DNA of 56,396 nucleotides, filler included, from Bipalium vagum (taxonomy: Eukaryota), in NCBI GenBank assembly GCA_037834085.1. It is 3 parts of 3 records of this genome, joined end to end, with 100 filler letters (N's around TTAATTAATTAA, not from the genome) between each part and the next. Parts side by side here need not be neighbours in the genome. Positions count along the whole stretch, not along the records: positions 39,353 to 56,396 come from JBBMKC010080928.1; 2 more parts are not named here. One strand, 5' to 3'. Position numbers and translations under genes: made by a program. A model generated the notes under the pieces. That model ran no database searches. It was not told the origin of the DNA and saw only the letters and a program-made list of their open reading frames with translations. Below, piece by piece: positions 17,768 through 54,822 of this stretch. Position 1 is the first letter of the stretch. Every line of letters begins with the position of its first letter.

Positions 17768-17867
17768 NNNNNNNNNNNNNNNNNNNNNNNNNNNNNNNNN
17801 NNNNNNNNNNNTTAATTAATTAANNNNNNNNNNNNNNNNNNNNNNNNNNNNNNNNNNNNNNNNNNNN
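17768..17867. other. Artificial assembly linker (44 N + TTAATTAATTAA + 44 N)
   Basis: Exactly 100 bp. The central 12-mer puts stops in all six frames, and the same structure recurs at 39253-39352. Confidence 0.95.
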
Positions 17868-25153: not shown

Positions 25154-25326
25154 NNNNNNNNNNNNNNNNNNNNNNNNNNNNNNNNNNNNNNNNNNNNNNN
25201 NNNNNNNNNNNNNNNNNNNNNNNNNNNNNNNNNNNNNNNNNNNNNNNNNNNNNNNNNNNNNNNNNNNNNNNNNNNNNNNNNNNNNNNNNNNNNNNNNNNN
25301 NNNNNNNNNNNNNNNNNNNNNNNNNN
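25154..25326. other. Assembly gap (173 N)
   Basis: Run of N without the TTAA linker, probably a size-estimated scaffold gap. Confidence 0.95.
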
Positions 25327-29498: not shown

Positions 29499-32400
29499 TC
29501 AGATTGTTTCTGATTTTTCTGGTAGTTCTTTAGTTGAAGACAAAATATTATTATTGTTGTTGTTGTATCTAGTATTTTGGTTGTTGCAAGGCACAGGGAT
29601 TATCATACTGGAAGCTAAAGCATCACCTGGCGTTGATGACGACGAAATCGGAATAGAAAGCACAGATTCCGAAATCGGATGGTTGGAATTTGCCGTATGT
29701 TGTCGCATATGCCACGTGCAGGCGTACACGCAAGTGAATGGCTTGTCGCAAATTCGGCATTTGTAACGCATTCCCGTATGGGAATTCATGTGTCGTCTTA
29801 CTTGATAGGCGGAAAAAAACTCTTTTTCACAAATGTCGCATTTGAAAAATCTTTGCCCTGTATGAACGTAAAAATGACGCGTCAAATTACCCATCCATCG
29901 AAAAGGTTTTGAACAAGTCGGACAAAAATATATCAACTGTCCATCGACTAGTTCTTTTGGTACGTCGCCCTTTTTCCAGACTTCTTTACGTCGTAAGCAG
30001 ATATGATGTCGAAGACTGTAATCATTACGATAATGTTTTCCACATTCCCGACAACGTAGCATTTTTCGACCGTCTTCATTTCCTCCATAATACACAGCTC
30101 TATTGTCTCCAAAGCAACTGAAATTATCAAAGTTATTTATACGGATGTTAAGAGATTTTATAATAAAATTAGAAATAATTCAATAAAAAATCTGTTATTA
30201 AAAATTCATCTATAAAGTCAAAATTTCAAATGAAAACAATATTTTCTATGAAAAGTTTCTCTTAACCCTTATTATGACATACATGTAAATCAAACGATAA
30301 CTTTAACGGGACACAAGGCTAAGATTTTAACTCAACAAAAATGTTAAATAAAATTTGGCCACTAACAGCCAGTGGGTCTTACGCTGATAAATCTGAGAGG
30401 TGATTATACAATCAGTACATCTCAAAAAGTGCGTTTTATGACCTAAACTCTCGTTTTATAATGATTTACACTTAACCAGGCCTTAGAGATTAGAAGAATG
30501 GTTTCTAAGAGCAATGTGATATATTGACCTGAAACATGTACGTTAATTAAAACAGACGTTAACAATGAATAACACAAATCATTCACAACAGACGATATAA
30601 GCACGACGTAATTCATTGGGTGGAAACCAACGAATCAGTGAGAAGAGTCATTACGTACGTAATTCGTTTGCATATATCAATGACCAGAAAAAACCGCTAT
30701 ACAACAACATTTTCAAATCACCATTATTAGTGGTATAATCATCATTAGCATTCTAAAATTATATATATTTCAAAATCTGTCAAATAAATATTGTTAAAAA
30801 TCGATTGTCGATATTTAATAAATTAATTTTGTCAATATTTATAATCGTTTTAAATTTTGTAAAATTCTGAAAAATATGGCTTCGTCATTTTTCGTTTTAA
30901 TTAAAATTGAAATACCGCTGAATTTTACCTCAACAACAATCGATTTATTGAAACAAAATGGTAAAAAGTGGGAAAGGAAAATGAACTAATCATAGTTACA
31001 TGTTTACTGGATTTTATATTACATTAAACAACGGCAGCATTAAATCACGAAAATGAACAAATATGTGTATATTTCTATTTTATTGCTCTCGTTGTTAAGA
31101 TAACTATCGGAATTCTTTTTATTTTAATCGAGTTTTGGATTATTATCGTATCCAGAGAGATATAAATTTAGTTAGAAACCGATCAAGTAGAGACGATTCT
31201 AAACAAAAAGAATGGTGATGAACCTATTTTAAAAACCATTGTCCACGTCTTTATTTCAAGCCAAAAAATTATCCAGCTATCAAGTCCGGTAATTTCTGGT
31301 GAAATTACCTATTCCCAAATAATAATGCTCTCCCAAAGTTTTACGTGTGTAAAAGTTTTGATACAACATCAGAAAAGGACAGTAATATGAAAATAACCGA
31401 AATATCTGTTGATATTTATTGGAAAACTATTTCAAACTTTTCCATTGACTGGGAACATTAGTGGTTAATTTTTATCTCGATATTTGACATTGAAATTCCT
31501 TATCATCGATATTGTATGTAAATACCTTCTTATCACAATGTCTCTTTTCCTCGATCTTTTCATTTTAATTTACCCATACCAAGGAGTAGTGACAAAATGA
31601 CAACAAATATTGTTATTATTTTTGGTAAATGTTCAATTTGTCACTGTTCGATGTGCTCTCTATCAAGTGACTGATTATTGTGTGTGAGAACACTGAGATA
31701 TGGAATGAGTGTAAAAAATAATAAAATTGGTATGAGAAATGTTGATTAAAACTTTGATGGGCTTGGTGTGACATGTACCTGGGTTCCAGAGTCAATTCTT
31801 CGTGAACATTATTGATTGGCAAATGAAAAATGTAAACTCGAAATCTACGAAAATAGCAAATCATCACAACGTTCATTGTTGGTACCTTGGTTTCAACAGA
31901 AAATATTAGTTTTTTGCGAAATTTGTGGCTGTTTTCCATAATGATTAATTTATTGAAATATTTTTTTAATATTAGTTTTGTGATTAAATCAATATTTTTT
32001 AATGTATACACAAAGAAAAAAACCTAGAAGTTTGATTTACGAAAAATTATGATAGATTTCGAAAATTCATAAAACAAAATTGAAAATAATTTATTGATTA
32101 AATTCGATTTTTAATCAATAAACTTTTATTTATTTTTAAAAAAATATGAAATATTTCTCGAAATTAATATATTTTTTGCTTTCAAAGAATCAATCCAACT
32201 TAATAAACTTGAAGATATTATTATATACAAAAAAGTAGAAAAAGTACAATGAAATAATAATAATAGTATGTATATATATAATGTCAGGAACGTCTATCAA
32301 AATCTGAAGATATGTATATCGGTAACCGATGATCGAAGCAGATTCACGAATTACACGTATAGCAGTTCAAAAGAAAAATGTTGACAATATCACAGTTTTC

Positions 32401-34540
32401 GGCACTTTAATAAAATTTCAAGGGTTAAGAATGTGGACCCATAGGAATTGACCGAGATCCAGAAAAATCAGGTCATCGAATTAAGTTATACAGAGAATAA
32501 GAATACTATCCGAAAGGCCACTTTCCACAAAATTGTAAAATTTGACACGTCCATTGAGGGAAAAAATAAATAATCGATTTCTTTAGCAAAAATGGATCAA
32601 TAAAAATCCAACAAGACAATTTCTTCCATTTACACATGTTATAATGGTATTAGCACCAAAACAAAACGACGATTAAAACTGCTCCGACGAAAATGAAAAA
32701 CGATTGTCCGAGAACGACTATCCAATTTCAAAGATACTGTGGTCGAGTGAGCAAAAATGGAATAAAGACCCCTAAAGGAAAAAGCCTATGTAACACAACG
32801 AAGCACCTCAATGGGAAAAGAACGAGAGAAAGAGGAAAACAGGAACACAAATCGATATTAAACAGCTGATAACAATTCAGTGAGACCAAAAATAGAAAGT
32901 GATATATTTCACCGTACAAATATATATTTATATACCCATTCCCTTTGCAGTCGTGAGTCAACAGAAGCAAGTGATTTATGTAATCACCAATTTACAATGC
33001 ACGCTCAAATACAATGTCATCATCACCGTCACCGTCAATACAGTAGAGAATTATCAGAGAATTGCAGAACTGGTAAAATATAAAATGCTAAGTAGAAATA
33101 ATAAAAAATTGATTCGTTTCTCTGTGTGTTTAAGAAACCTTGTGGAGAAAACGTTCTAAAAATCACAGTTTCACCATCTCATTGAAATAAAATCAATAAA
33201 CAACAATAAGATAGAAAAAACGATGGTTGAACAATGTTACCAGTGATAAAAAGAAAATAAATAAATATAATAATAAATAATTGATTAATCTGTTTAAGAT
33301 TTACTGTGAGGTTTTGAATAATCGATATCGACAAAAGCAGTTGATAAAAGGACCAATGCGACTTGATGAACGTTTCCAATGATCACAGGCTTTTGTGTTT
33401 ATTGATCAACTATTTCTATTGGTTTTATTTAAATAAACGCTTTACAATTATTCCCAAATGAAAAAAAAACCTGAAAGTTCTCACCCACACCCACTATCAG
33501 TCCATCGATTGATTTTAGGTCGTTTACACGATTTAAGGTCGACATTAATTAAATTTAACCAAGAACTTTATCTCCGAACATGACCCCATTCTAATAATAC
33601 AAGAAAAATATCTTTGAGATTAAAAAGGACCGTCTCCCTTTGTATCTCAAAGAAAGTGTTATTTTTTTATGGAATGAAAATTATGTAAAATCAATACAAA
33701 ATGTTTCTGTACATAAAATCGATCAAATAAACAAGAAAAACAGAATGTTATTTTCGTAGACGTCTATTTGTGTTATGCATTAAAATATCAATTATTATAT
33801 TTTATATACAATTATTATTATATCTATAATTATAAATATGTGAAAAATGAAATTAATGAAAAATCGATGGAGAATTTGATGTTGAAAACTTGAAAGAGGA
33901 TTTTGGATAAAATACATCAAAATGTAACAACCTCTTGTACTTGCCAGACATTTTCTTCATACTGTTCGTCTCAGTAGTTAACAGACCCTTGGACAGGGCT
34001 GTTAATCTGGACATTTTTGGTTTCAGGTGTTGGCTACTGTTCACAGATTCCGTGTCGTCTTTCTGGCTAGATTTGTCACTGTTTTCCGTGACTGTCGCAG
34101 CATTCGGTCCAGTCACGGGCTTAAAATCGTCACAGAGCTCGGAATCATTTTCTTCTTCTGAGCCAATCCAAAATGCTTCTCCATAGAAGCTGTCCTCGTC
34201 AGGGACATTGTCATCATCGTTAGTTTTCATAATATTATCCTTGGAATTACTATGATTTTGATTATTTAAAATGCTGACAAAAATGATTTGTGAAATGAAA
34301 TAAAAACCATCATTATTTTAAGCCAATTTACTTGATTGCATCGGAAGAATTTTTGGAAACATCCGAAAATGTAGCTGTTTGAATTTGGGCTTTTTTTCGA
34401 TTACTAAACGATACAATAACATATCCGTCGGAAGAAATTTCTGAATTTGACAAATTTCCTTTACTATTTGTACTCATATCTTCTGATTTTGGAATTAAAT
34501 CTTTTATTAATCGTCTTGCTAAAGACGTTCGATCTGCCAT
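29499..34540 (-). CDS. C2H2 zinc-finger transcription factor, flatworm zfp-1-family-like, ~389 aa, 3 exons
   Basis: Exons 34540-34332, 34273-33932 and 30117-29499 (1170 nt). Both introns are GT-AG phase 2 (58 nt and 3814 nt). One C2HC-type finger (CRECGKHY..HHIC), then three C2H2 fingers linked by TGQRFFK and TGMRYK. Confidence 0.88.
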
Positions 34541-35479
34541 TTTAATTTACTTTTGTAATCTAAAATTATTGAAATTCTAAAAATAATATCAATTAAATTC
34601 AATTTCTATTAAATCATAAATTAAGCAATTATATTTAAGTAATTTTGTAACAAAATTTTTTACTAATTAAATATTTGAATAAAAATTTAACGAAAGCCTG
34701 AAAAAATACAAAATATAAGTGGAATTAAGTTAAGGCTGCATAAACCATTAAAAATATTATGAAAACCAGTTGAATTTTACACGCTAAATTTAATTCTTTT
34801 GATAATAGTTAAACAAGTATATTAAGTAACAAATCCTCAATTAGTTATTTTAAACAAATCTTTCCTTGATAAACTTCCTGTTTATTAAGATTCAAAAAAT
34901 TAAATAAAGTTTTCTATAAATTTTTTCGTTTTTTAAAAACCATTTATTTAATTATGCATTAAAAGCAAAAAATCATAACTGATTGTGCAAAATACAGTCT
35001 TTGTAGAGAAATTTTTTCATCATTTCAGACGATAATTTAAAATAGTTATTTATCTAATTATTGAATTTTTATTTTTCAGAACAATTGACTAATTTAATGA
35101 AAATATTTTCTTTTCAAATAAAACAAGCTTAATATTAATTACTAATGTTCTATATATAGCAGAAAATGAGTTACTTAAAAATCATTTATTTAGGATTCTC
35201 TTAATAAATAAAAATTAATACGAATTAGCTATGTAAAAAAAACAGTTTTACTTGTCTTTAATTGAAATATGAGTTAAGAAAATTTTAATATACTTTATTT
35301 CTATTTCCTATTTTTAAATTCATATGGAAAAATTCTAATTTTCTGATCCAAACAGATAGAAAGAATTCCAAAAATGGTGGTTGAAGTTGAAATTACCTGC
35401 ATTTTAAGATAAATTAATGCTCTTAAAATAATATTTAAATTAATGAGTTATTTGTCTATATCAGAAGTGGCTTTTTAAA

Positions 35480-39252: not shown

Positions 39253-39352
39253 NNNNNNNNNNNNNNNNNNNNNNNNNNNNNNNNNNNNNNNNNNNNTTAA
39301 TTAATTAANNNNNNNNNNNNNNNNNNNNNNNNNNNNNNNNNNNNNNNNNNNN
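39253..39352. other. Artificial assembly linker (44 N + TTAATTAATTAA + 44 N)
   Basis: Same 100-bp structure as 17768-17867. Confidence 0.95.
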
Positions 39353-39559: not shown

Positions 39560-41730
39560 TGTATGAAGAAATCTTGTATGTAGTTAAATCAGTTAAAACA
39601 TGTTATTGAAATAAATTTGGAAAATTTGTAACTATCAAAACTGCGAAATATTTTTAAAAGGCAATGGTTTTGTATCCTGGTTTAAAAGATTGAAGCTTTA
39701 ATTAACAAAAAGACACAGAAGACTGAGACTTAACAATGTAAATCAACGTGTCAGTAAAAATGCATCATTTTGGAAAAATATAATTTTTAGAAATTAAACA
39801 AGAGTTCTCATTCATAATGACATTAAATACCAATGACTTTTGATAAGAGCAAATAATCGAAAATATTGGATTGAGGAATAAGTTCATTCCGTTTATTTAA
39901 TTAATGTAAATCTCTCATTCTTTCATTGATTTTAGACTTGTTTAAATGTGTTAGTGGTGGCTAAAAAATCGTTACTCTCCATAATAATTTATTTATTCAA
40001 ACCGCTTTCTGTTTTGTTCAATTTGCTATTAAAACAAATGAAATTTTAATACTTTTCACATAAAAATTTTCGCATTTAATTCGAATATATTGAGCTTTAA
40101 AATTTATGATTGTTTTTATTAAAAATTTAATTTATACTTTTATTTAATTATTAAAATCTTTTAGCTCAATATACTGCAAATTAAATTAAAAAATTAAATA
40201 TGTTACTCAGATATTTTTAGATTCTCGCAAAATGTATTATATACATGGTATATCGTAATTTTGAATTTATAGGTAACTTTTGAATATTACTTTAACTTGT
40301 GATTTTATAATGTTTAGAAAATGAACCTCCAAGTCGAGAAGAATGAACATATCCATCTATTTCTGTTTGAATTTAATCGTGGTTCAAATGCTACTCAGGC
40401 AACCACAATCATTGGCAGTGTGTATGGGAAGAAATTCTAGATAAAACAACTAGAAAGCGATTTGCCAGGTTTTAAAGAAAAAAAAATTCTTTGGATGATG
40501 CTCCTCGCGTTGGTCGCCAAATTGAATTTGATGAGCAAAAATTATTGACCATACTCAAAGAGACCAAACCATACTCAAAAAGACCAAACAAAGCGGAAAT
40601 TGGCAGCCTGAATGAACTGTGGTCAAAAGGCTTTCCGTATCATTTGCATTCTATGGGAAGAGTTCAAAAGCTTATCGCGTGGATTCCGCACGACCTAAAT
40701 CAACAAATGATTGGGTTTCCGTTTATGCTTCTTTTCTTGAACAATACAACCCAGTTGTAAATCAACATCGCTCATTTCTCTCTTTACTCGTTACTGGGGA
40801 TAAAAAGTTGTGTTTGTACACCAATATTAAACTGCGAAGACAAAGGATTGACAAAAATGAACAACCTAGTCCTTGTTCCCAAGCGAAGTCTTCATCCTCT
40901 TAAGGTTCTGCTTTTATGATAGAAGGATTTATTCACTGGGAATTACTAGATAGGAATTCAACTATTACAGCTGATGTTTATTGACAAAATGTTCGGCGTT
41001 TGTCAGAAGCAATTTGTTTAAAACGCCTGAATACTCTTTGTGAGATTATCCTTCAACATGATAATGCCCAAATAATAATTCATCAAAATCACAAGGAATT
41101 CGGTTAGGAGGTGCTCCAACGTCCTCTCTATTCACCGGATTTGGTATCATCTGACTACCACTTGTTTCAATCACTCTCAAATAATTTGAGCTGCAGATTA
41201 TTTGAAAATGAAAGAGAATTAAAAAACTAGCCTGTCAAATGGTTTGCCTCAAGAGATTTGACTTTTTACCGCCATAGATTTTAAAAACTTGTGGATTGCT
41301 GGCAAGAAGTAATTACGAAGGAAAGAGAATATATATGTGAATAATTTTGATAAATTTGATATAAATCAAACTATTTTTAGTATTTTAAATAAATGCAAAA
41401 AACGGAATGAACCTATTCCTCAACCCAATAGTTACTGGTTATATTAAATCTCTTACTAGAGTTACTTTGTGGGGACCATTCACTACATCAGAAAAGCGAC
41501 TGATAAGTTTTCTTAATAATGGTGAGAGATATAACTTAGTCTGGTATTTAAAAACTTTAGACACATATGTTCATGTAACAGCTACTTTTGAATTTGGGAG
41601 ATCTAGTTGAATCTTGCAAAATGATGAAACTCTCTACCATCGTAGTAAGGTTGTCAACAATTGCATACAGACAAACAATTTTGAAACATTGAATGGACCA
41701 CCCTAAATCCCAGATTTATATCTTATTTTT
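39560..41730 (+). mobile_element. Degenerate Tc1 transposase split by a nested mariner
   Basis: The 5' part (to 39863) reads LTKRHRRLRL..FWKN, matching KPLLTxxHxxxRL..W. The 3' part (41431-41730) reads VTLWGPF..YLKTL..LQNDETLYHRSKVV..PP*IPDLYLI, matching VMVWG..DNAPxH..WPxxSPDLNPI. Confidence 0.7.
39866..41428 (+). mobile_element. Full-length but inactivated mariner (1563 bp)
   Basis: TA TSDs; TIR TTGG(A/G)TTGAGGAATA(A/G)GTTCATTCCGTTT. The transposase runs from ATG 40321 (MNLQVEKNEH..FEFNRG) through WIPHDL, VTGDKK, QHDNA and YSPDLVSSDYHLF, with stops and frameshifts. Confidence 0.95.
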
Positions 41731-41796: not shown

Positions 41797-44700
41797 CTAT
41801 AATAGTACCAACACATTAACTAACTTGTGTCGTATGTATTCTTCATAAAGATCTTTCCAACTTTTTCCGTCAATGTTCTTAAAACTCAAAATAACGGAAT
41901 CCATCGATTCCTTTTTCTTCAATCTTCCGAAATACACGACTCTGTTTCTGTTGAAAACAATGGGCTTTCTTGGGTCAATTTCAACCTTTTCTCTCATAAT
42001 ATCATTGTTGTCCTTTTGCAAGTAACGTAAATGTATCGAGCATAGGTCATTGTTAATTTCTTCAAGTTTTTCTTTGATTTCCTGAAAGAGAAAAGAAATT
42101 CTTTTAATATTAAAAATCATTATAAAATTAAATCATTATTCTTTTTTCGTATTTCTTTTTTCCGACGAAGCATATTGTACTTATAAGAGTTATATTTTTC
42201 ACGAATTATTTAACGAATGCGAGGGTGAATCAAAATTTTCCAGGACAGTATTTCAAAAATATCGTTGGGAAATACCCTCACATTCACCATACAATCCTGA
42301 CTTGGCTCCCTTAGACTTTTTCTTGATACCCGAATTGAGAAAATATCCAGGGAGTTCACTGAGAAACAATATCAAAGGTCAAAAAACTGCTTTGAAATGG
42401 TTCAGATCAAAGGATCAAAATTCTTATAAAAACGGTTTAGAACGCTGGCGAAACCGTGTGGAAAAGTGTTATGAGTTAGATGGTTAGTATGTCGAAAAAT
42501 TAATTGTTGTGTCCAATTTTGATTTTTCCTGGAATACTTTTGATTCATCCTCAAATAGAAGAAAATTAATTAAGAACCTTTCATAAAAGAAAATTCATTT
42601 CATTACCCATAAGTTCTGGTTCTGGTTTTTGTCAAGTAATCATACCTAAGTAGATCAACTCCAGTGATTTCATAATGGTCCATAAAGCTACCAAATTTTG
42701 TCCAAATGGGAGACAGAAAAGGAACTTGCCTAATTTTTTAACTCTTTTTCATTCAAGTGATTGGGTTTCACATTACAGTATTCATAATAATTGTACTCCC
42801 TCTTTTGTCAATACCAATCATATTCACAAAAACTATTTATCATTTCGTCATTATTGCACTTGTCTTTGATATAGAAAATGCTTTTGTCATGGAGATTTAC
42901 AAGGCGTTTGAAGTCACTTTAATATTTTACCTATTCTAAATGCAAGATAAACAAAAAGGATAATCGTTCATAATGCTTATTTACACTACATCAAATGAAA
43001 GCGTGCAAGGTTATAAGACATGTTCATAATGATATCCATTATCATCTTTACATATCATGAAACAAAAAATACAGGTTTATACTACTCAATCCAGAATTGA
43101 TTCATTTATGTCAAGGCAGTCTTCAACAACTATTTGATTAAACTTGATATGCGGTGACGATAAACAATTTTCTTTAGATAGCTCAACCGAAAACAGTCCA
43201 ATGGCTAAGACCTTGACTTTTATATGTCCAGCTATTCTAATCTCGACTCCAAAACAAAAACATTTTGCATTTTTTTATTTTCTTTTTTACTTTTAAGTTC
43301 CGTTTTTACTCTGATTTTTGTTTTTTCTTATATCCATTTTCTCTTTTTGATATAAATAATTTTATTAATATCAAATATACCTGGTCATTGCAATAGACTC
43401 AAGAATTACTTAGGTTGTTCCAAAAGTTTTAAGAAACAATGGTAAAAGAGACTTGTTATAATACTTTTCAAGAATTTTTGGATACAATAGGTTATGATAT
43501 GAAATATATTTCATACCATTGGCATAACACCTACGTAAAAATGAAAGTCTTTAAATTTATCGTCTTTACAATTAATAGTTGTTCAGTCAACTAATTTGAT
43601 TGAGAGTAGCAACATGTGAAGTATTTTTTTATTTACTGGCAAATAATTTATGAAATAAACTTAAATTTTATAACAAGAACATTACCAGTATTACTTAAAT
43701 CTAATTTTTGAGTTTTTTGATATTTTTTTAATATTTAACAACGGCTGCAGTTTAATTGGTATTTATTTACATTTGTTTTAATGAGCTAATTTATTTTGAA
43801 AAACGTGAATTTAAAAATATGTTTAATCAACATTGCACAATTTTTTAGGTGTCATACTGAGTCAAGTATGAAATTTGTAAAAAACGTTTATCAATAAAAT
43901 GCAAACAGAAATAATTAATCTAATCATCAAAGTTGAATTGACCTTTTCTAAATTTAGCAAACCAATTTGCCACAATGTGCTGTGTAGTTACACTGCAACT
44001 AAATACTCCATTAATATTTAGCGTGGTCTGTGATTCTGTAGTTCCTCGTAAAAATTCATATTTAATGATGATTCGAATTCCTACTTCCATTTTCAAATAA
44101 TTTTATTGTTTAAAGAATGTATATTGATCTGTTTAACATGAGAAAAATGTAAGCTTCTTAAAAAAACCGAATGCAAATATATGAACCCATTGTCAAATTA
44201 TCAGCTGTTAAAATTGACAATGTATGACCTACAAATTTCATACTTGACGACCCAATAGAACTTATTTTATGAAATAATAAATCCATTTATAGGCAATATT
44301 GGTAACATTGGAAGAAAAACTATTAGTCCAACCACCTAATATTTACTTTTTATCATTATTATAAAGATCTCCAGTAATCGTTAGATGAGAAAAAGTTTCA
44401 GGACTAACCTTATATTTTTGAATGACATCTTCTTTCTTTCGCATGTCTTCATCAAGTAAATCAATGTTTTTCGCCAGATAACTCATATCTTCTTCAAGAT
44501 AATTTTCAAAATCTGCAGTCACATGAAGGGGAGCGTCAAACAAACATTCCATGAGCGCTCGAATATTTCGGTTTCGTCTGGTAAATTTAGAATAATACGA
44601 TCCCGATTTCTTTTGAATATAATCTTCGGAGTTTTCGTAAAAGTTTCGAATATTAGCCACATTCAACTTAGATATAATCCAACTAAACCAGCTTTCGATT

Positions 44701-47700
44701 TCCTTTTTAACTACGCCCGTCAACTCAATTCCCGGAGCGAGGATGGGGGCGAAAATCTGAATAAACTTTCTTTGATAATTTGGCAGGCCGATCAGCTCAT
44801 TGAAGTCGACTTTTGTCAAATTGCACTTAATGTGATTCAGTACTGAATCAATGTGTTTGTTCATATTTTGATTGATTTCGTTCTTTTTCTTTTGATGCTC
44901 GGCGAACTGTTGAAGGAATCGGGCCAGCATTTCGTCGCAGCACTGTTTCAATATGTTTTTATTTTCTATAAATTCTTTGAAGTTTATCAAAATTCTGTTG
45001 ACTGTCAAAGTTCTGATCTCGTTGTCAATTTCATTATTTTTCGTTAAGCCAAACAAATGGGAATGGTTGTTTAAAACTTCGTTTATGACCTTCAATTTGG
45101 TTTCATTTAAACGGAAATATCTTTCAATTTCCTTCCTACATTTCTCATATTTATCTTTGACAAATTTATCATTTTGTTTTTTGAAAGATTGATTCAACAG
45201 TTTTCTGTCACTTTCCAAATTCCTCAGATTTTCGATGTATTTGGTTTTCTTTACTTTATCATCTTCTGCAAATTCTTCGGACTCGATTATGTATTCCGTT
45301 GTTTTGACAACAAAACAAAAGAGAAATCTGAATATTTGAATTTTATTAATATTTATTATTTTGTTCTTCATCTCATTTGTTTTAAATTCCCTTTTAACCA
45401 ATAGAAATTTTCGAAAAATTGTTCATTAAAACAAAACAAGTATAAAATATTCTAAATTTAAACAATACCGTTGAGCATAAATCTAAAAAAAACATTTATA
45501 TTTTATGGAAATTTAATGTCCGAAACTGTAATTCCAAAATTAAATTTATTTATACTAAAATTTTTTGAAAAATTAAAACAAAAGGATAAATAAAAAATAT
45601 TAGGTTGTTAAATAAATTCCTGTGATATTTTGATATTCATCTCTAAACAAGAAACGCAACTTATAATCGTCATCTATTCTAAGAAATTAATAACAAATTA
45701 GTCGGTGACAAAATCTCCGCCGTTGGTAACGACGTACACCAACCTGTCCACCAGTTTGTCGAAGTCATGACACCAGAAATTTTTGTGCTTAGTCACAAAG
45801 AAGTTTTTCAGCCATTTTTAAGGGTACTCATTATCGAATATAAGGCCCACCATTTTGAAAAGATGAAAATTCGTTGGAGCTAGGTTCAGAGAATATGTAT
45901 AAGAATCTCCCTATCGAGCTCTTGGACGATAACTTTAACAAAATTAGCTGTGTGGTCACAGAAAAAGAGGATTCAAAAAATATACAAAATGTGAACAAAA
46001 TAGTGCAGTTAAACAAAACAAATGAATAAAATCACGAGAAATTATGTTACAACCCAATATTAAGATTTTAAAAATATACTTACCAATTAAATTTTAATAA
46101 AGTGACATGCTTTCGGAATTTTTACACATAAGAAGGAAAAGAAATAAAATAAATACATAAAGTTTCTCAAAAATTCAAAAGTTAACATTTATTAAAGGTC
46201 ATTATTGATGTGTTTGTATATTTTAATTTAGTAAAATATGAATTGAAAGATTGTGTTTCGATGCAGATCGTTTTGTGAAGACGTTTATGATAGTTTCACC
46301 ATATTTAGAATGACAATAAACAAAATAAATTGTGAATTATAAAAATATGATAAGGTCTAAGTACAAAATATGCAATTTTATAATCTCTTAGGTTATTGAT
46401 TATTCATTATAAACATTAATGTGAATATCAAAGGTATCGACTAAAATTAAATTTCCGTAATTAATATTTTTCTTTATAATAAAATAATTAATAAATAAAA
46501 ATTATTTATTTATAAAACAATATTTTTATGATTTCCTTTAATAAGGTTTAATAAAACATTAGAAACTATTTAAAAAATTAATAATCAATAATTAAAATTT
46601 GATTGGAAGATACTTAACTTTAATTATATTAAAAAAATAGAAATCAGTATTAATAATTTTTTAATTTTTCCGATTTAATACCGTAAAAAATTTTAATTAA
46701 TTTTCTTAATTAATTTTAAATTAATTTAATTTAAAATAAATGAACATAAATTTTTCTAATTTTGAAACTTAATATTTAATTATAAATACAAAATTATTTC
46801 TTGGTAATTAAATCATATTGATTTTGACTAGATGATAACTAGGTAATAAAGTTCAGAATGTCACAAGATGTTTCGAAATTTTTTAAAAATACTATCATTG
46901 ACGTAATTTACCAAATTAAATTTTAATTTTTAATGTAATGTTCATAAATGATTATTTATTAACTATTAAATTATAACATAAAGTAAAAAAATATTTATTA
47001 CCAAATCAATAAAATGGAAATATTCTCTTAAAAATTAGAAAAATGATATAAATAAAGATAATAAAATATTTTTATTCTACGCAAACTCAAATTTTTAATT
47101 GGCATTTACAAAGAGATCATAATTCTCCTTTGCTCCATAATCGATCAATTCCTAAAATCTTAATCATTAAAACTAAAATAAAAATCAATCATTACGATTG
47201 TTTTAATAAAAAAGTTTATTTCTTTCGAGAATGGTACATCCATTTAAAGGCCCTAATCAATTTAAAACCTAATTTATTCATTAAAACAAACCCAATTTTA
47301 ATGAATTTTTTAAAGAACATTTTTATTCGAACTATTAGTTAATTGACGTTCATGATTGTAATTATAATCGTATCAAACGCAATATTTTTGGCAAACTCTT
47401 TTTATAGGTTGTCTTAAAACTCCCCTCTGAAAGCAAACTTAAACATTTTCTTTCAATTCAATCCATTCAAAATATTATTTGTATAATATTGAAGTTTGTA
47501 AGGTTGAGAAAATGGCGGCTCTTATGGGCATCAGAATAAACATTATATTTTTGATGACGAAATTTGAGTCAATTTGTGTGGTAAAAAGAAAGTTCAAAGC
47601 CGAATTTGGGAAAAATTCGAAACGTGAAAGAAGTATTAAAAAACCTTTCATCGCTTTAGTTAAACTGAATCAATAGAATATCGAGAAAGTTCTCTAAATA

Positions 47701-50700
47701 CCAACGACCACTGAAAATGAAGTTAGCAAAGATGTCAGAATTATTAACACTGAGCCACCATATAGTGTTTGGTTTGTTATAACAACCAATTATAAAAGGA
47801 CAATTATCACTGAAACCTTATAAAATACATTTCATATAAACATTGCATGAAAAAGATTTGTACGACAGCATTGAGATTACAAAACTCTGAGCCATTTAAA
47901 GCCATTGAAAGAACAAGGTATTCAAATCTGAAATTAAAAATATTGAGGATTTGAACACAAAAATCAATGAAGAAATAAAAGGTATTACACAGGAGAAACT
48001 TTGAAAAAGTATTTTTAAATCTTGTAAAAAAGGGTGCATTGGTGTATTTCAGTTAAGGGTAGTCATTTTGGACAGTTGTTGTAAATGATTCTATATGAGA
48101 TAGAACTTTAAGATTTCTGTTCACTTTAAACAGCAAGCCAGTAAATATTACAAACGGCATAAGAAACATCGAAACCAACTTTCCGCTAGAACTTTTTGGA
48201 CACCTTGTATTTGGATATAGACATTTCAAATAATTACCAAAAAAATGTTATTGTCCTTATTTGATTTTATTAATTCATTTTATACGTATTATTTGTCAAA
48301 TGCCTACTCGAAAACCGATACTGTATTTGTATTGATCGACTTCAGATGCAAATCTCGGATATGGGTCAGGATATCTTCATAATCTCGACTAATGCAATTG
48401 TTTTCCTGTAGGAAGAGTTCTCTTTTTGTGCTGAATGTCGATATTCCGGGATTAAAAATTATGCACTTCTGTTTTAACTGTGAAATAACACTTTTTCGCA
48501 ATTCTTCTTTTTCTGAAGCTCCCTGAAAAGAACTCATCACATGAAAAACCTTTATGAATGTTTACCTCTAATAAATCACACATGTTTATAATAAAGTGCA
48601 TGGCGGCACCTGGAATTCCATATTTCACCATAAAACTAATGGTTTTGGATAACTAAATAAGAAATATAAGTAATGATGTTCTGTAATTTTTTGTTGGATC
48701 CTAGGAATTATTGATAAAAAGACTGTAGCTTCTGTAGACTGCCAAGATTCGGATTGTCTCAATTAACAGCTGTTGATTTTATTTGAACAATTAATACTAA
48801 AAGGAAAGTCTTAGAATATATCTTGGCATACCTTGAATGCTCAGTACCATTTACATGTTCCAGTTTTTGATAAGGCAACCATCGGTAGGTCTTTAATCTT
48901 ATTTTAAAGAAGTCACAAAATAACTTTCCTCAGCTACAAAAACTTGAAAAATTCTTTGCTCATATTTTTAAAATTTTTAAATTTCCTCAATTTATTTAAT
49001 TAAAAAAATTAACGTAATATAATAATATTTAATAATTTATTGATTTTTATTGTGTTTTATCTTTATATATTTATATAATTTTTTTTCACTCTGGAACAAT
49101 TTAATATATTTTGAATAAGGACTTAAAGATGAAATATCAAATATGACTTCAAAATGGACAAATCCAGTAAAAGTTCAACTGCAATATTTATTGTACTCTT
49201 AAAAATGCCTGGTATTAAAAATTGAATAAAAAATACATTTTAATTGTTATTATTATATTAATATGAAATTCTCAATTGATTATTCTCTTATCTCTAATGA
49301 ATTCAAGATAAAAAGCAAAATTTGAGTCTTTACATAGAAAAAATACTAAGAACCCATATCTCACATTCTTTTTTTGGTTATGAAATCAAAGAGATACTTT
49401 TTAGCTAACATTTGAAATAATCATAACATCCGGAAAATGTTCCAAGAAAAAGTAAAGATTCTTAGAAGAAATTCAAATATTTTTATCATTGAAGATTGAT
49501 TGGAGGGTCAAGAGATTCAAAATATAATCAACCCTTTTTAGTTTTGAAATTTCTTAATTGTTTTCTTCAGTTACCATCAATTCTTCTTTTTATCTTTATG
49601 TACAATATCAATACAAAAGATGCGCGAAAGTTAAAAGTTTCAATGAAATCATTATTTTTTAACTATTATTGATTATTATTAATTGGATATATATTGGATT
49701 GATGGAAATTAATATCACTTTTTTATATTACAGATCTAGGGTCGATAAATTATCATAAAAATCTTTTATTTATTCAAAAAAGTCACTACACTTTCCACAT
49801 TGTTAAAATTTATTTATACTGTCTTTAAAAAATCCGAGTCACAGAATTCGAAAAACGATTCAAATCGATTGTTTTATGGGTCTATGAGAAGTGGCATTAT
49901 CAGGATGAAGCATAATTGAGAGTTTCGAGTTTTTTTCCTCAATTCTTTGAGGTCTTCAAGCAAGCAAACTATGGTATACAAATTCGAAGTAACTGTGCGA
50001 CGATCATCTCAAGGAATGGTAGCGACATGATTTGATTTGGCTTCAAAACAGCCAATCATTTACTTGGAGGTCTTCCGGGATCAAACAACTTTCGTTGGTA
50101 ATTTTTTAATTTTGTACATATATTTCTCGTCTTATGCAATTATTCTTTTCAAAAGATCCTCATTTCTGTGTTTTAAAAATAAAGAACAGCAAATACACAA
50201 GTGCCGAATTTTGTATTTTTGCCTAAATAATAAAGGATCCATTTCTGAGGCTTTTTGACTAAACAATTAGTCTTATTTAATTGATAAATTAATGAAACAA
50301 AGCTTAAGATATCATTCCAGATTAACAAACATTTTCAAATCGTTTTATTTTAAAGATAAATCTTTCGGAATATTTTTCTTTGAGAAATGTCTATGAAAAA
50401 GCAATACTACTTTTCCTTCAACCATGATTGGTAATGTAGAAATCTTAACGTAGACGTATAATTAACGAAAGTAGTAAATAAGGCAACCAAACTTTGAGAC
50501 ATCTTAAAACTCACAGTTTACCTACAGGATCTTTGGTGATCCTATACTTTAGTGACGCAAAAGTATGTCAAATTAATTTTCACTTATATAGTATAATATT
50601 TAATTTTTAGGTTAACTAAAATAATTATAATATTTTTAATTAAATAAATTTATATTTTATAACACATATTGACTATTTACAGTATTTATAAAACATAAAA

Positions 50701-53700
50701 ACAGATTAGTCTTATCAAATTTTTTTTAAAATATTACAAATTTATGCTTAATATTTTAAATTTGACCTACTTTGGCGCCACTAAAGTATAGGATAACCGG
50801 ATCTTGTTTCAGTTGATTATCATTTGGAAGCATAAAAGTTATCCACGAAGTTAATTTTTGATTGAGAAATATTTTTTATATTCTTTTAAAATAAATGTAC
50901 TACAGTTGAAACTAATGATTTTTTAAAATTAGTGCATTTAAACAAATAATATTACAATATATTTTTTATTAAATCAAAATTAAAAGCTTAAAATGATTGG
51001 AAAATATACTTTAGATGTACAGTGAAACCTGTTAAGTTGATCCTTTTAATTTGTTTAGTTTGTTAATATTTCCTTAAGTTAACCCTCTATATTTTGGGCA
51101 AAATGGTCAATCCCAGTGATGCCCAACATTGACAGGTTTCACTGCATTATTTTTTCTTCTAATTAATAATAGTAATTTTAATATTTTTTAAAATCTGAAC
51201 TCGCTCAAAAGTTCCAAGTTTATCTTTTTTATTTTAAAACTTATAAAATTAAAATTTATTTACCCCTCCAACTGTATTGTCTCCGATTGGATTGTTTTTC
51301 TTTAATAAAAAAATTATTCCGGTAATGTCTCTTAAGTTCTTTGTTAATTCATCGTTAAAATGCTGCTTTTCTCCCAATCCTATTGTATCATATATGTCCA
51401 GCCCACCCTAATAATACTGTTAGAGAATAAGGAAAACATAATCTCACCTCAAGAATGGGACTTTTCACAAATATTGAGCATAATTTGCAGGAAACTTCAT
51501 TTCTATTCTGCACATTTTCCAGATAGCTGTTCAATTCCTTTTTAAAATCTTCTCTTTTAATTTTAACCTCCTTTCCTTCTAAATCTATTATTTCAGCCCT
51601 CTCATCTGTGTCATATGTTAATCGGACTTGACAAGCAGTATTACTCCTTATTGATGTGGGTAACAAGTCTTCCTTAATGAGTAAATTGATAAAAGAACTT
51701 TTACCGGCTCCCGAATCTCCTGAAAATATCAAATGAAACTATCAATTATCAATTCTTTTCTGTAAAGGAAATAATAAATATATTACTTTTTAGTCTATAA
51801 AACAAAAACTTTATATTTCATTATACAAATGTCACAAAGGAACCGAACCGCAAACGTCAATAAAATTTAGACATCAAAAACGACTAATATAATTTCTTCT
51901 TTTATGTTATCTTGGCTACTGTAAATAGCAGTCTTTTTAATGACTTTTGCTGCGTAATCTTATTGATTTTGTTCTGACGTCATTGCTGATTTTTCTTCAG
52001 CTTGCGCTTCTGGACTCTCATTGTTAAAAATGCAGTGAAGGACTTTAGATTTAAAAGAACATATCTTCGTTATTAAGAATTACTGTGCAAGGACTAGCTA
52101 CAAACATGTTGAAGAAAGATTGGAAGCGAACTTCGGAACATCTGTACCGAGTAATTCGACAATGTTCAATCTTGTAGGCAAATTTAAAGTTCAAGATGGA
52201 TATTTGGAACATTTGTAAATATTTTACTAAATATACCTATTACATTTGCTGAATTTGGAATTGAACCTATATCTATAAAATCTAGGGAACACTTGAGGTT
52301 ATCATAAAAGATTCAATATTCGTCGCAAACAGAATTAACTTAGAAATAAATTTGAACAGATTTTATTTATTGGTTGTTTTAGAAGATCACTTAATATAAT
52401 TGGTATCAATTTATTTACTTTTTAACTTATACAGGGGCATCCATAAGTTACTGCACGATTTTTTTTAAAATATCTTTTTATAAAAATGAAAACGAAGACT
52501 TTATTTATTTAGATACAAAAGTTGCATAAGGAAAATAATATTTTTCTAAATGGCCTATTCTGAGTGCCTTACACTCACGTGCTCTTTGCATGGTATTTTT
52601 TATAAATTTTTCACATAATTTCGGGGAAATATCTAGGTCATCTTTCTAAATATTTTGTTTGAGGTCCATAGGAGTACTATGTAGAAAACGGTAATTACAA
52701 CACAATATTATTATAAGTCAAACTTTGTTTAGCAATGGAAATTTTGTAAAGATCGGAACAAATGATAACCTGAACAAAGGTTGTGTTGGTTTACATTCCT
52801 TTGAAAAAAATATCAGCTATTGATGCCTCATTTCTGCGGTGTGTGGCTTAGCTCCGTCGTGTTGAAAAATTAACGTTTCTGATGAGCAATACAAGAAATT
52901 TCACAATTAACCTCTCTCAGAAGATCGAGAATTTTTACAAAAGATATCGGAATTTATAGGCAGATCCGTTTCCAATAATTTAAAATGAATTAATGATAAT
53001 CATTTAAAAAAACCTTTAGAAATACTTTCTTCAGGTGAAGTTGTGCTTTCACATCTTTTAAATGTTTTGTTACCTGGAAATAATCAATGATTTTTGTTAT
53101 ATGGATTTTCATACATTCACTTCACGTAATTAATGGTTCCTTTATGTTTAAGAGTATTATTTGACAAAGTGCACTCGATTTGACTTCTGTTTTAGACTTA
53201 ATTCTTAATGAATCCAAACACCGAGCCTATTATTTGTGCCTGTCAGTTTCATGTGATTATATTGCAGTTAAATAACACAGGCGATTCTTTTAATGTCTTT
53301 CTAGGATCTGTTTCAATAATATATTTCAGCACACTGTTATCCATCGAAGATTATCGATTATAATTTAATAGTAAATAAGAGATAACATGTAAATTTTGAC
53401 ATTATAATTTTAAAATAAACATTTTTTTTCTTTTTACTTGTTATTTTTTAACTTAATTATCGATTAAAATTATTTGGCCTAATAAAATAAATAAAAGGTT
53501 TTGATGTATGAATTTTTCTTTTTAGAATTACATAAATTTCTTTATTTTAATATTACGACATATGTTAAATAATACTTTTTTATTTATTATTTAATGAGTC
53601 TATGAAAATTATTTTATTATTATATTTAATTAAAATATCACTTCAGACCGAATAATAATCTTTACAATTATGTAATATAATAAATAAAATTATAAAATTA

Positions 53701-54822
53701 TTTACCGCAAATCAGCAAAGAGCAGCTCGGTGTTTTTGTTAGTAGTTGCTTTTTGCTTCGAAATTGGTCTTGAAGATTTTCAAATTCATTATTGATTTTG
53801 GATATCAAGGGGTCGTCTTTTTCCGTGACTTCGATCTTACCGAGAATGGGAACTTTAATTTTATCAAGCTTCCGAATTTCTTCATATATTGATGATATTT
53901 GATCCATATATTTCTCTAGATGTTTCCTTCGTAACGCATCTTCTTTAAATGTTAAGTCTTTGTTTTCTTTAAACTATTTTCAAAATATTATTTTATTCAA
54001 TTGACGAAACTATTTATATTAATTTTTATTTTTTATTAATTATTTTATATTTACGAAATAATAAATGGATGAAAAAGAGGATAAATTAAATTAAATTCTT
54101 CTTTATAAAAAAATAGTAAAAACTAGTAAATAAATTATTATAAAGAAATAAGAAAGAAGGGTGTGATAAGACTATTTATATTATTTATTTCAAAATACAA
54201 CATAATATTATATAATATATTATATACTATATATAAAAATTTATTTTATATTGGGTTGTTCGGAAAGTCACTTCTCATATTTTAGTAAAAAGTCAGACCA
54301 AAAGTTTTATTAGTTATAAATATTTTAACCAATGATGTATTGTCCTTTTAATTCCAAGACCTTCTGCCATCTTCCAGGCAATTTGATGTAATAATTATAT
54401 TGATTATGATTTAAAGATAAATATAAAAAAGCGAAATGACTTTCAGAACAACCAAATATATAAATATACATTATAAGAAAATAAACTAACCTATATATAA
54501 TCAACACACTAAAAGTGTTCTGTTTTAATCTTATGATAAGAAATTTACGAGTTTTGCAGATATATTATAGTATTCCTTATTATTTTTTTAACATAATAAT
54601 TCGATAATATTTACTCACTTCTTTGGAGTAAAAGACGAAATCTGTCACTGTTGTATTTTCTTTCATCACATTCAGAATAAGTTGTTGTCGAAGATCGGTC
54701 ATGTCTTTGAACTGCGTAATTCCATAACGATTTTTATGTGACAGTAATTTCTTAGGTTCCATTGCATCGATAACGGAGATGGACAATTTCTGAGATAGAT
54801 CATCTTCTGTTTTAGAATTCAT
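41797..54822 (-). CDS. Dynamin-superfamily (BDLP/mitofusin-like Dynamin_N) large GTPase with helical stalk and truncated degenerate kinase-like tail, ~797 aa, 8 exons
   Basis: Exons 54822-54619, 53973-53706, 51719-51448, 51407-51264, 48652-48566, 48522-48308, 45327-44409 and 42081-41797 (alternative donor after 41825). All introns are GT-AG with consistent phases (0,1,0,0,0,2,0). G1 LLICG|DSGAGKSSFINLL, then LLPTSIRSNT (G2), DIYDTIG (G3) and FIINMCD (G4 position). Confidence 0.85.
42220..42553 (+). mobile_element. mariner deletion derivative (MITE-like, ~334 bp), same family as 6875-7507
   Basis: Both TIRs present (CGAGGGTGAATCAAAATTTTCCAGGA / TCCTGGAATACTTTTGATTCATCCTC). The interior is only the transposase C-terminus (PYNPDLAPLDFF..GLERWRNRVEKCYELDG). 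Confidence 0.92.
42980..43250 (-). mobile_element. Tc1-superfamily transposase C-terminal relic
   Basis: PLDCFRLSYLKKIVYRHRISSL resembles PLDFFLWGYLKxxVY. Confidence 0.5.
43855..44256. mobile_element. mariner-type MITE (~400 bp)
   Basis: Perfect 19-bp inverted repeat GTCAAGTATGAAATTTGTA at 43861-43879 and 44230-44248. The right end continues GACCCAATA. Confidence 0.75.
45600..46057 (-). mobile_element. Internally deleted mariner (~460 bp)
   Basis: TA-flanked TIRs TTAGGTTGTTAAATAAATTCCTGTGAT / ATCACGAGAAATTATGTTACAACCCAA. Minus strand WLKNFFVTKHKNFW..KLVDRLVYVVTNGGDFVTD*. Confidence 0.88.
47403..48210 (+). mobile_element. Deleted Tc1/mariner-superfamily element (DUF4817-HTH type)
   Basis: N-terminal RINIIFLMTKFESICVVKRKFKAEFGK and C-terminal KNIEDLNTKINEEI..KRVHWCISVKGSHFGQLL*. 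Degenerate TIR ending GGACACCTTGTA. Confidence 0.8.
49690..50290 (-). mobile_element. Degenerate mariner remnant
   Basis: Minus strand PTKVV*SRKTSK*MIGCF, RRTVTSNLYTIVCL..ELRKK and MLHPDNATSH. Confidence 0.75.
50525..50806. mobile_element. MITE with ~45-bp imperfect TIRs
   Basis: ATCCTATACTTTAGTG(A/G)CGC(A/C)AAAGTA(T/G)GTCAAATT inverted at both ends around an AT-rich core. Confidence 0.85.
51020..51144. mobile_element. Tiny pogo/Tigger-like MITE (125 bp)
   Basis: Perfect 13-bp TIR CAGTGAAACCTGT; TA on the left, CA on the right. Confidence 0.8.
52040..52220 (+). mobile_element. Deleted Tc1-superfamily transposase (HTH joined to C-terminus)
   Basis: KEHIFVIKNY..FGTSVPSNSTMFNLVGKFK runs directly into DGYLEHL* (cf. 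GGHFEHL*). Confidence 0.6.
52430..53340 (-). mobile_element. Degenerate Tc1-superfamily element
   Basis: TA-CAGGGGCATCCATAAGTTACTG terminus. Minus strand LIFQHDGAKPH and QRARECKALRIGHLEK. Confidence 0.7.
54251..54456 (-). mobile_element. mariner MITE (206 bp) in intron 1 of the GTPase gene
   Basis: TA TSD; TIR TT(G/T)GGTTGTTC(G/T)GAAAGTCA; interior IKLPGRWQKVLELKGQYII. Confidence 0.9.

What the first reader, a model, noticed from the sequence alone, without database searches (positions are those of the whole stretch)
41797..54822. Bacterial-dynamin-like GTPase fused to a degenerate kinase-like tail: candidate uncharacterised membrane or immune effector
Seen: eight phase-consistent exons encode a ~70-aa N-terminal module, a helical segment, a Dynamin_N GTPase, a long helical stalk with a hydrophobic Pro-rich tip (IFAPILAPGIELTGVV), and finally VEIDPRKPIVFNRNRVVYFGRL..SVILSFK..DLYEEYIRH. 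That last part follows kinase subdomains I-III but lacks the Gly loop and the canonical VAIK. The P-loop is split by an intron, so this is a host gene and not bacterial contamination. Established: the GKS..N.L....LP......T signature belongs to the BDLP/mitofusin branch; DSTYK-type proteins join a related N-terminus to a kinase; Mx, GBP and bacterial DLPs act in anti-pathogen defence. It does not look like classical dynamin, Drp1, OPA1 or a conserved mitofusin. Inference: a divergent, lineage-specific GTPase-pseudokinase, the best novel-system candidate in this window.
Basis: partly seen in the sequence, partly recalled or inferred. Interest (0 to 1): 0.7.

Follow-up and report, generated by a model that had tools for sequence, protein, structure and literature searches.

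The report
Invertebrate dynamin-kinase gene, likely cut short
This intron-containing animal gene encodes a dynamin-type GTPase that runs into what is likely the start of a kinase domain; it matches a widespread, little-studied invertebrate family, and its short 'dead kinase' tail is likely the first fifth of a kinase cut off by a break in the assembly.

Summary
In detail: eight GT-AG exons (54822-41797, minus strand) give one open frame of 797 codons with an intron-split P-loop and a Dynamin_N hit. The gene is not lineage-specific. It aligns in one piece (E 2e-62, columns 5-749 of 999) to a family of ~1000-aa Dynamin_N-plus-kinase proteins from corals, molluscs, brachiopods, hemichordates and amphioxus, labelled 'DSTYK-like' or 'uncharacterized' in databases. 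The tail sits where the family's kinase begins. It probably does not end there: the only GTnAGT donor among 85 GT sites of the coding sequence lies nine codons before the stop, a coral gene model stops at the same column, and an assembly spacer follows 2.4 kb downstream. The remaining ~225 kinase residues are not in the window. G1-G3 are kept; the Gly loop is lost; 33 of 65 relatives also lack a catalytic kinase residue. Likely function: a membrane-binding GTPase that clusters a pseudokinase. An immune role is untested. This scan noted the same family before in Trichoplax and a protist. Ten paper searches found no description of the family.

The parts
54619..54822 (-). Exon 1 (aa 1-68): ATG and small helical N-terminal module shared with the family
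   Evidence: maps to family profile columns 5-53, weak alone (E 0.005); three short helices in the modelled relative; no Pfam hit
53706..53973 (-). Exon 2 (aa 69-157): helical neck and first strand of the G domain; ends inside the codon of the first P-loop Gly (phase 1)
   Evidence: columns 72-124
51448..51719 (-). Exon 3 (aa 158-248): G1 GDSGAGKS and switch-I Thr185
   Evidence: Dynamin_N E 5e-10; family profile E 8e-22; P0001 57% identical and breaks off at the same intron place
51264..51407 (-). Exon 4 (aa 249-296): G3 DTIG; follows a 40-nt intron whose place matches an exon edge seen in Lingula P0116
48566..48652 (-). Exon 5 (aa 297-325): G4 NMCD (family mostly NKWD; NMWD in 2 of 65)
48308..48522 (-). 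Exon 6 (aa 326-396): end of G domain, start of helical bundle
   Evidence: family profile columns 313-377, E 6e-8
44409..45327 (-). Exon 7 (aa 397-703): helical stalk with Pro-containing tip at about aa 583-603
   Evidence: family profile E 2e-14; all-helical model, tip low confidence; 8 of the 9 best fold matches are dynamin-superfamily proteins but Z only 5.3-6.6; tip less hydrophobic than family median
41825..42081 (-). Exon 8 (aa 704-789): last stalk helix, then kinase N-lobe up to helix C; Gly loop replaced (IVFNRNRVVY); ends at a phase-2 donor
   Evidence: columns 688-750, E 2e-5; tail alone beaten or matched by 24 of 2000 shuffles
41797..41824 (-). GTTAGT donor and nine read-through codons to a stop; likely intron, not the true C-terminus
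   Evidence: only GTnAGT among 85 GT sites in the coding sequence, same hexamer as the intron-7 donor; GC 0.21 over the next 100 nt
39861..41451 (+). Decayed Tc1/mariner-type element with terminal inverted repeats, downstream of exon 8 (inside the presumed intron 8)
   Evidence: inverted arms 39861-39910 and 41384-41433, extending to about 41451 (I2 and I25); broken HDNA...PLYSPDL...DY frame (family label recalled, the two fragments sent to Pfam gave no hit)
39253..39352 (.). 100-nt spacer (44 N, TTAATTAATTAA, 44 N), stops in all six frames; likely an artificial join between contigs, 2.4 kb past exon 8
   Evidence: identical spacer at 17768-17867; high-copy repeat on the gene side (depth about 24,000); reading as a joining spacer is recalled practice, not tested

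Best explanation
The gene encodes a fast-evolving member of an invertebrate family that joins a mitofusin/bacterial-dynamin-type GTPase and helical stalk to a kinase domain; the copy here likely continues in exons beyond an assembly break, and the protein would likely bind a membrane by its stalk tip, pair up through GTP and so cluster a kinase domain that is likely catalytically dead. Shown: exon structure, G1-G3 residues, end-to-end match to the family, kinase position of the tail, loss of the Gly loop, a donor site inside exon 8, no kinase C-lobe in the window. Inferred from MFN/BDLP biology (recalled) and from the fold of a relative: GTP-driven G-domain pairing, tip insertion into one membrane leaflet, oligomer growth. 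Inferred: the pseudokinase works as a scaffold or as an allosteric partner of an active paralogue or other effector, so the GTPase cycle on a membrane becomes a signalling switch. By analogy with DSTYK (late-endosome membrane; kinase-dead forms still localise, PMC11933320) an endosomal or lysosomal membrane is the first guess. My odds: family membership 0.9; gene continues 0.75; pseudokinase 0.7; membrane-clustering mechanism 0.5.
For: One continuous profile hit, E 2e-62, columns 5-749, from N-terminal module into the kinase start. GTPase tree joins it to 35 family rows against 16 bacterial or SLIP-GC rows, support 95/86. 107 of 121 relatives reach column 900 or beyond. Donor: 1 GTnAGT in 85 GT sites, background 8 in 17,044 nt; nine read-through codons fit the 1-37 seen at the seven real donors; coral P0134 ends and amphioxus P0085 changes register near the same column 772. 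Nucleotide-binding residues G158, G163, K164, S165, T185, D255, G258, N319, D322 kept. Amphioxus relative P0041 model pLDDT 85, pTM 0.84 matches MFN2 (Z 29.0, rmsd 9.4, 366 aligned), Fzo1 (Z 27.5) and TK/TKL kinases (Z 26). The Atlas places P0032 next to DSTYK clusters (score 0.92; TM 0.48-0.52 over residues 10-948) and BDLP-type clusters. Tip window is the 11th most amphipathic of 787. Kinase death recurs: 6 label changes on the tree, 5 forced by well-supported branches.
Against: The tail alone is weak: no Pfam hit, no protein-kinase hit in PDB sequences, shuffle p about 0.012. The missing exons were not found. The long branch (3.53) makes the tree position unsure, and the link to the P0019/P0058 pseudokinase clade has support 61 only. 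Only 16 of 35 family-conserved columns are kept, including loss of the invariant Pro of G3 and of the AGG...R motif, and G4 lacks its Lys, so GTPase activity may be weakened. The tip has an uncharged run of 13 residues against a family median of 26 and a 19-residue hydropathy of 1.66 against 2.03, so membrane binding may be weaker. The beta-3 Lys is ambiguous: Ser769 fits the commonest spacing (33 of 65) but Lys771 fits 7 of 65. The exon-7 model was built with family rows, so its stalk-like fold is partly circular, and Foldseek found nothing at E<=0.001. Two of the 33 'pseudo' labels come from gaps in gene models (P0085, P0144).
Confidence: 0.55

Rival explanations
1. The gene really ends at the stop at 41797: the kinase C-lobe was lost (perhaps after transposon insertion) and the protein is a GTPase-stalk with a vestigial N-lobe stub.
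For: No C-lobe exon in any frame of the window or among phase-2 candidates; a mariner sits 350 nt past the stop; Gly loop gone; an ATTAAA lies 34 nt past the stop; 14 of 121 relatives end before column 900.
Against: ATTAAA occurs 0.35 times per 100 nt here; the donor is the only one of its kind in the coding sequence and lies where the match ends; GC drops to 0.21 right after it; long introns of this gene are 2-3 kb, as long as the DNA left before the spacer; the short relatives end at scattered columns, as broken gene models would.
Confidence: 0.17
2. It is an innate-immune effector in the manner of Mx, GBP or bacterial DynA: it coats damaged or pathogen membranes and signals or kills through the kinase-fold domain.
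For: Many paralogues per species in amphioxus, corals and bivalves; fusions to a HEPN_DZIP3 domain in 2 and to a trypsin domain in 1 of 37 scanned; fast evolution; DSTYK phosphorylates STING (PMC11933320, passages); DynA protects against phage (PMC12998192, abstract).
Against: No infection or wounding data, no paralogue count, no selection test for this gene. An amphioxus pangenome paper on immune-enriched dispensable genes never mentions dynamin in its main text (PMC12373286).
Confidence: 0.3
3. It is the organism's own, very divergent mitofusin or DSTYK orthologue doing the housekeeping job.
For: Fold of the family is closest to MFN2/Fzo1; DSTYK clusters share the layout; some short relatives are labelled mitofusin-2-like.
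Against: No Fzo_mitofusin domain in the exons or in 37 of 37 relatives; no clear transmembrane pair (best 19-residue hydropathy 1.66); DSTYK clusters show no common Dynamin_N hit whereas this gene has one; DSTYK needs an active kinase (PMC11933320).
Confidence: 0.07
4. It is a decaying pseudogene.
For: 19 of 35 family-conserved columns lost; G4 Lys and Gly loop lost; transposon remains around it.
Against: 2394 nt over eight exons without stop or frameshift, all splice sites intact; shuffled exon 7 always holds 12 or more stops; the losses spare the nucleotide-binding core; a relative is 57% identical over exon 3.
Confidence: 0.05

Closest known systems
[quoted passage not shown] Branchiostoma floridae C3ZD64 = P0032, XP_078587387.1 = P0041; unnamed P0019)
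   Same: Order and length of all parts from the N-terminal module to the kinase start; tip motif; at least one intron place; frequent loss of kinase catalytic residues
   Different: Much more divergent (GTPase identity median 24% to the family against 40% within it); weaker tip; G3 DTIG and G4 NMCD; kinase seen only up to helix C; no flatworm is named among the 120 listed hits
DSTYK (dusty kinase, SgK496)
   Same: About 930 aa, long N-terminal part then a TKL-like kinase; model of the amphioxus relative overlaps it over residues 10-948 (TM 0.48-0.52)
   Different: DSTYK clusters carry no common Dynamin_N hit and DSTYK is an active kinase (PMC11933320); this gene has an intact P-loop and no Gly loop
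Mitofusin / Fzo1
   Same: G domain and helical bundle fold of the family (Z 29.0 and 27.5)
   Different: No Fzo_mitofusin domain, no transmembrane pair, extra N-terminal module and C-terminal kinase
Bacterial dynamin-like proteins (Nostoc BDLP 2j68, mycobacterial IniA, SynDLP)
   Same: Best solved sequence match of exon 3; stalk with a hydrophobic tip
   Different: Spliced animal gene; groups with the animal family, not the bacterial rows; fused kinase

Membership tests
Dynamin superfamily (PF00350) | Dynamin_N GTPase domain above the curated cut-off | tested here: met
   40.1 bits against cut-off 27 from exon 3 alone
Dynamin superfamily (PF00350) | G1, G2, G3 catalytic residues | tested here: met
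   GDSGAGKS, Thr185, DTIG
Dynamin superfamily (PF00350) | G4 N/T-K-x-D | tested here: inconclusive
   NMCD keeps Asn and Asp, lacks Lys; 22 of 65 relatives also lack that Lys, 2 of them with Met
Dynamin superfamily (PF00350) | Long helical stalk after the G domain | tested here: met
   profile E 2e-14; helical model; fold matches weak, Z<=6.6
Dynamin superfamily (PF00350) | GTP hydrolysis, membrane binding, self-assembly | not testable with these tools
   needs purified protein
Invertebrate Dynamin_N + kinase (DSTYK-like) family | Colinear match over N-module, neck, G domain, stalk and tip | tested here: met
   single hit, columns 5-749, E 2e-62
Invertebrate Dynamin_N + kinase (DSTYK-like) family | Groups with the family in a GTPase tree | tested here: met
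   support 95/86 as sister to 35 family rows; long branch; no true mitofusin or DSTYK among the rows
Invertebrate Dynamin_N + kinase (DSTYK-like) family | Complete kinase domain directly after the stalk | tested here: inconclusive
   about 60 of about 285 residues present; rest absent from the window; donor and assembly spacer follow
Active protein kinase | Gly-rich loop | tested here: not met
   Val745 and Asn747 at the two Gly columns
Active protein kinase | beta-3 Lys and helix-C Glu | tested here: inconclusive
   Ser769 by commonest spacing, Lys771 possible; Glu784 fits helix C by hand alignment
Active protein kinase | HRD and DFG | not testable with these tools
   that part is not in the window
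Mitofusin / Fzo | Fzo_mitofusin (HR2) domain | tested here: not met
   no hit in any exon at E<=5; 0 of 37 relatives
Mitofusin / Fzo | Transmembrane anchor near the C-terminus | tested here: not met
   one moderately hydrophobic stretch, uncharged run 13 aa
Mitofusin / Fzo | One-to-one orthology by tree | not tested
   no true mitofusin sequence was among the proteins fetched
DSTYK orthologues | N-terminal part without a Pfam-detectable Dynamin_N, active kinase | tested here: not met
   Dynamin_N present; Atlas DSTYK clusters list only kinase families; Gly loop absent
DSTYK orthologues | One-to-one orthology by tree | not tested
   no vertebrate DSTYK sequence was among the proteins fetched
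Classical dynamin, Drp1, Mx | Dynamin_M, GED or PH domains | tested here: not met
   none in any exon at E<=5; domain definitions from PMC11789081 passages

The most novel reading that the evidence does not exclude
This family is an unrecognised sixth animal branch of the dynamin superfamily, outside the five clades of the 2025 survey (PMC11789081): a mitofusin-type GTPase hard-wired to a kinase, the parent stock of vertebrate DSTYK, that turns GTP-driven assembly on a damaged or invaded membrane directly into a kinase or pseudokinase signal. This gene would extend it to a probable flatworm as a GTPase-active, kinase-dead sensor.
Probability: 0.3. Interest if true: 0.7.

Novelty: new member of a known kind. 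Interest (0 to 1): 0.36.

Why it matters
The gene itself is one divergent and probably incomplete copy, so it adds little alone. The family matters more: about 1000-aa GTPase-kinase fusions are common from corals to amphioxus, about half with dead kinases, and none of ten paper searches found them described. If they assemble on membranes as mitofusins do, they would explain what DSTYK's long N-terminal part is and give a testable link between membrane remodelling and kinase signalling. A complete member from amphioxus or oyster is a better object for that test than this gene; a flatworm copy would be useful mainly if RNAi is possible in the animal.

Tried and rejected
Word-index protein searches with exon 7 (0 of 2508 candidates) and exon 3 (0 of 96) found nothing; the full HMMER scan with exon 3 gave 39 hits and opened the family. 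Exon 8 against PDB sequences gave only 5 chance-level hits, none a protein kinase. Foldseek on the exon-7 model: none at E<=0.001; BDLP 2j68 and mitofusins were not among its 50 listed VIA rows, which excludes nothing. Search for further exons downstream: 15 phase-2 candidates, none kinase-like; six-frame profile scan of the whole window, no hit to columns 750-999 below E 6. A frame at 41715-41560 that looked by eye like kinase subdomains IV-V did not score. Sequencing runs: no RNA holder listed; the single holder X1 behaves as DNA, matches the window without a difference in the eight longest pieces at depth 18-26, may be the window's own source and is no independent support; it cannot test the spacer because repeats flank it. 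Bacterial contamination rejected (introns, phases). SLIP-GC GTPases (P0002, P0020) matched exon 3 only and fall outside the family in the tree (P0002 was not in the tree). No tRNA in the window. No earlier scan note matches exon 3 by sequence. Rows dropped before counts: of the 120 listed hits plus P0019, 98 of 890-1130 aa were kept and cut to 65 at 75% identity; the GTPase tree used 35 of the 65 and 16 of 36 outside rows; Pfam was run on 37 chosen relatives. Paper searches without a description of the family; several were loose, subscription papers are not held, and no supplements were read. Left open: paralogue count, other alleles of exon 8, selection tests and the organism's identity, for want of a whole genome.
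Full report
1. What is there. The window is AT-rich animal DNA (GC 0.17-0.42 per kb). On the minus strand eight exons from 54822 to 41797 join in phase, with GT-AG ends, into 797 codons without a stop. Introns are either 40-43 nt or 0.6-3 kb. Intron 2 cuts the codon of the first P-loop Gly, so this is a host gene. Exon 3 matches Dynamin_N (E 5e-10) and, among solved structures, Nostoc BDLP best (E 0.0045). Shuffled exon 7 always holds at least 12 stops (1000 shuffles). The organism was not identified here; earlier scan notes call the genome a planarian or flatworm (unchecked).

2. Relatives. A full HMMER scan with exon 3 gave 39 hits. The best, P0001 (57%, 97 aa), breaks off at the same intron place. 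Two full-length animal hits, P0019 and amphioxus P0032, carry Dynamin_N plus a kinase. A search seeded with them gave 122 proteins at E<=1e-20; of the 120 listed, 108 by my count show both Pfam families, from corals, bivalves, a snail, an argonaut, Lingula, hemichordates and amphioxus, named 'uncharacterized', 'DSTYK-like', 'bacterial dynamin-like' or after unrelated kinases. A profile of 65 non-redundant members matches the gene in one piece, columns 5-749 of 999, E 2e-62, and seven of eight exons land in order when scored alone. In a GTPase tree the gene is sister to the family rows (95/86) on a long branch. So the architecture is old and widespread, not lineage-specific.

3. The tail. Exon 8 carries the last stalk helix and then aligns to the first kinase columns (E 2e-5). 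The 61-residue tail alone is weak evidence: 24 of 2000 shuffles score as well against an N-lobe profile, though none of 126 scored windows from the rest of the protein does; Pfam and PDB show nothing. Its position makes the kinase origin likely. Relatives have about 225 more residues; 107 of 121 reach column 900. Inside exon 8, after base 41825, lies GTTAGT, the same hexamer as the intron-7 donor and the only GTnAGT among 85 GT sites in the coding sequence (8 in 17,044 nt of the strand); nine codons to a stop follow, like the 1-37 at the seven real donors, and GC falls to 0.21. By hand alignment the donor falls at column 772, just after helix C; coral model P0134 ends there and amphioxus model P0085 leaves register there. 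Our intron 3 likewise matches an exon edge in Lingula P0116. Downstream are a decayed mariner-type element, high-copy repeat and, 2.4 kb from the exon, a 100-nt N spacer with stops in all frames, likely an artificial join. No C-lobe exon is in the window. I put 0.75 on the gene continuing on another contig.

4. Is the kinase dead? The Gly loop has no Gly. The beta-3 Lys column holds Ser769 at the commonest spacing (33 of 65), but Lys771 is possible (7 of 65; its distance to the helix-C Glu would be below the family minimum). HRD and DFG cannot be seen. In the family 32 of 65 keep Lys, HRD-Asp and DFG-Asp; 33 do not, two of them through gaps; the state changes at least five times on the tree. 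A dead kinase is thus ordinary for the family.

5. The GTPase and tip. G1, switch-I Thr, G3 Asp/Gly and G4 Asn/Asp are kept, while 19 of 35 family-conserved columns are lost. G4 reads NMCD; NMWD occurs in 2 of 65. The tip aligns with the family's hydrophobic Pro-containing hairpin but is shorter and amphipathic. The exon-7 model is all-helical with an unresolved tip (pLDDT 73); 8 of its 9 best matches are dynamin-superfamily proteins at Z 5.3-6.6, below the bar for helical bundles and partly circular. The complete amphioxus relative folds well (pLDDT 85, pTM 0.84) and matches MFN2 (Z 29.0), Fzo1 (27.5), SynDLP (24.2) and TK/TKL kinases; its kinase profile finds B-Raf, NEK7 and FGFR2 among the best.

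6. How it likely works. Shown: parts, order, residues. Inferred, from recalled MFN/BDLP biology and the relative's fold: the tip enters one leaflet, GTP pairs the G domains, oligomers grow and bring the C-terminal kinase folds together. In active members this would allow trans-phosphorylation; here the domain would be a scaffold or allosteric partner. DSTYK, the nearest studied protein by layout, sits on late-endosome membranes even when kinase-dead and phosphorylates STING (PMC11933320, passages), and zebrafish dstyk is tied to the mTORC1/TFEB pathway (PMC6981171, listing only). Immunity is a fair rival: gene expansions, HEPN fusions in 2 of 37, DynA in phage defence (PMC12998192, abstract); nothing here tests it.

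7. Against what is known. It works like a mitofusin/BDLP-type GTPase but is not a mitofusin (no Fzo domain, no transmembrane pair) and is not filed as DSTYK (Dynamin_N present, Gly loop absent); orthology trees with true mitofusin and DSTYK were not run. A 2025 survey lists five animal dynamin clades and does not use the word kinase in its main text (PMC11789081, passages); a 2023 survey left out mitofusins and BDLPs (PMC10280142, passages); the STING paper never mentions GTPase or dynamin; a RIP-kinase comparison treats DSTYK as separate from RIPK1-7 (PMC9573974, passages); an amphioxus pangenome paper has no 'dynamin' (PMC12373286, passages). Ten searches found no description of the family; supplements and subscription papers were not seen. 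The family is visible in databases and in Atlas clusters (62 and 56 members), and this scan noted it before in Trichoplax and a protist (AI notes, not evidence).

8. Verdict. Real gene, right domains, wrong emphasis: a new, divergent and probably incomplete member of a database-known, unstudied family. Interest 0.36; the family-level claim would deserve 0.7 if shown.

Noticed in passing
window 18686-21358 (+): Single long open frame (890 codons stop to stop) with DEAD and Helicase_C domains, an Arg/Gly/Asn-rich N-terminus and an acidic Trp-containing end; looks like an intronless vasa (label recalled).
   Followed up: partly
window 29499-30179 (-): C2H2 zinc-finger frame followed by a Ser/Asn-rich tail.
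   Followed up: partly
window 33856-34546 (-): Unknown gene, two coding stretches linked by a likely 58-nt intron (34331-34274); acidic and Ser-rich, no significant Pfam hit. Lies beyond the spacer and is not a kinase exon.
   Followed up: partly
window 17768-17867 and 39253-39352: Two identical 100-nt spacers with stops in all six frames, unlike the plain 173-N gap at 25154-25326: the window is likely several contigs joined, so neighbourhood across them should not be trusted.
   Followed up: partly
window 15806-16141 (-); 6941-7276 (+); 42086-42487 (+): Integrase core fragment (rve, E 2e-11) and a Transposase_1 fragment (E 1e-14); a mariner-like frame in intron 7 by eye, with no Pfam hit.
   Followed up: partly
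window 50535-50798: 40-nt inverted arms, 90% complementary, 184 nt apart, in intron 4 (I3): likely a MITE.
   Followed up: no
P0108, P0122, P0139: Family members from a coral and an oyster carry an N-terminal HEPN_DZIP3 domain, one amphioxus member a C-terminal trypsin-like domain: possible effector fusions.
   Followed up: no
family N-terminus, window 54619-54822: A conserved ~50-aa helical module with no Pfam hit starts most members and is doubled in P0070; not folded or searched alone.
   Followed up: no
family alignment: A large clade keeps the beta-3 Lys or Arg but replaces HRD...N with H-x-[ED]-L-[ST]-x-[DN]-T type motifs and loses DFG: a conserved pseudokinase type across amphioxus, hemichordates, Lingula and bivalves.
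   Followed up: partly
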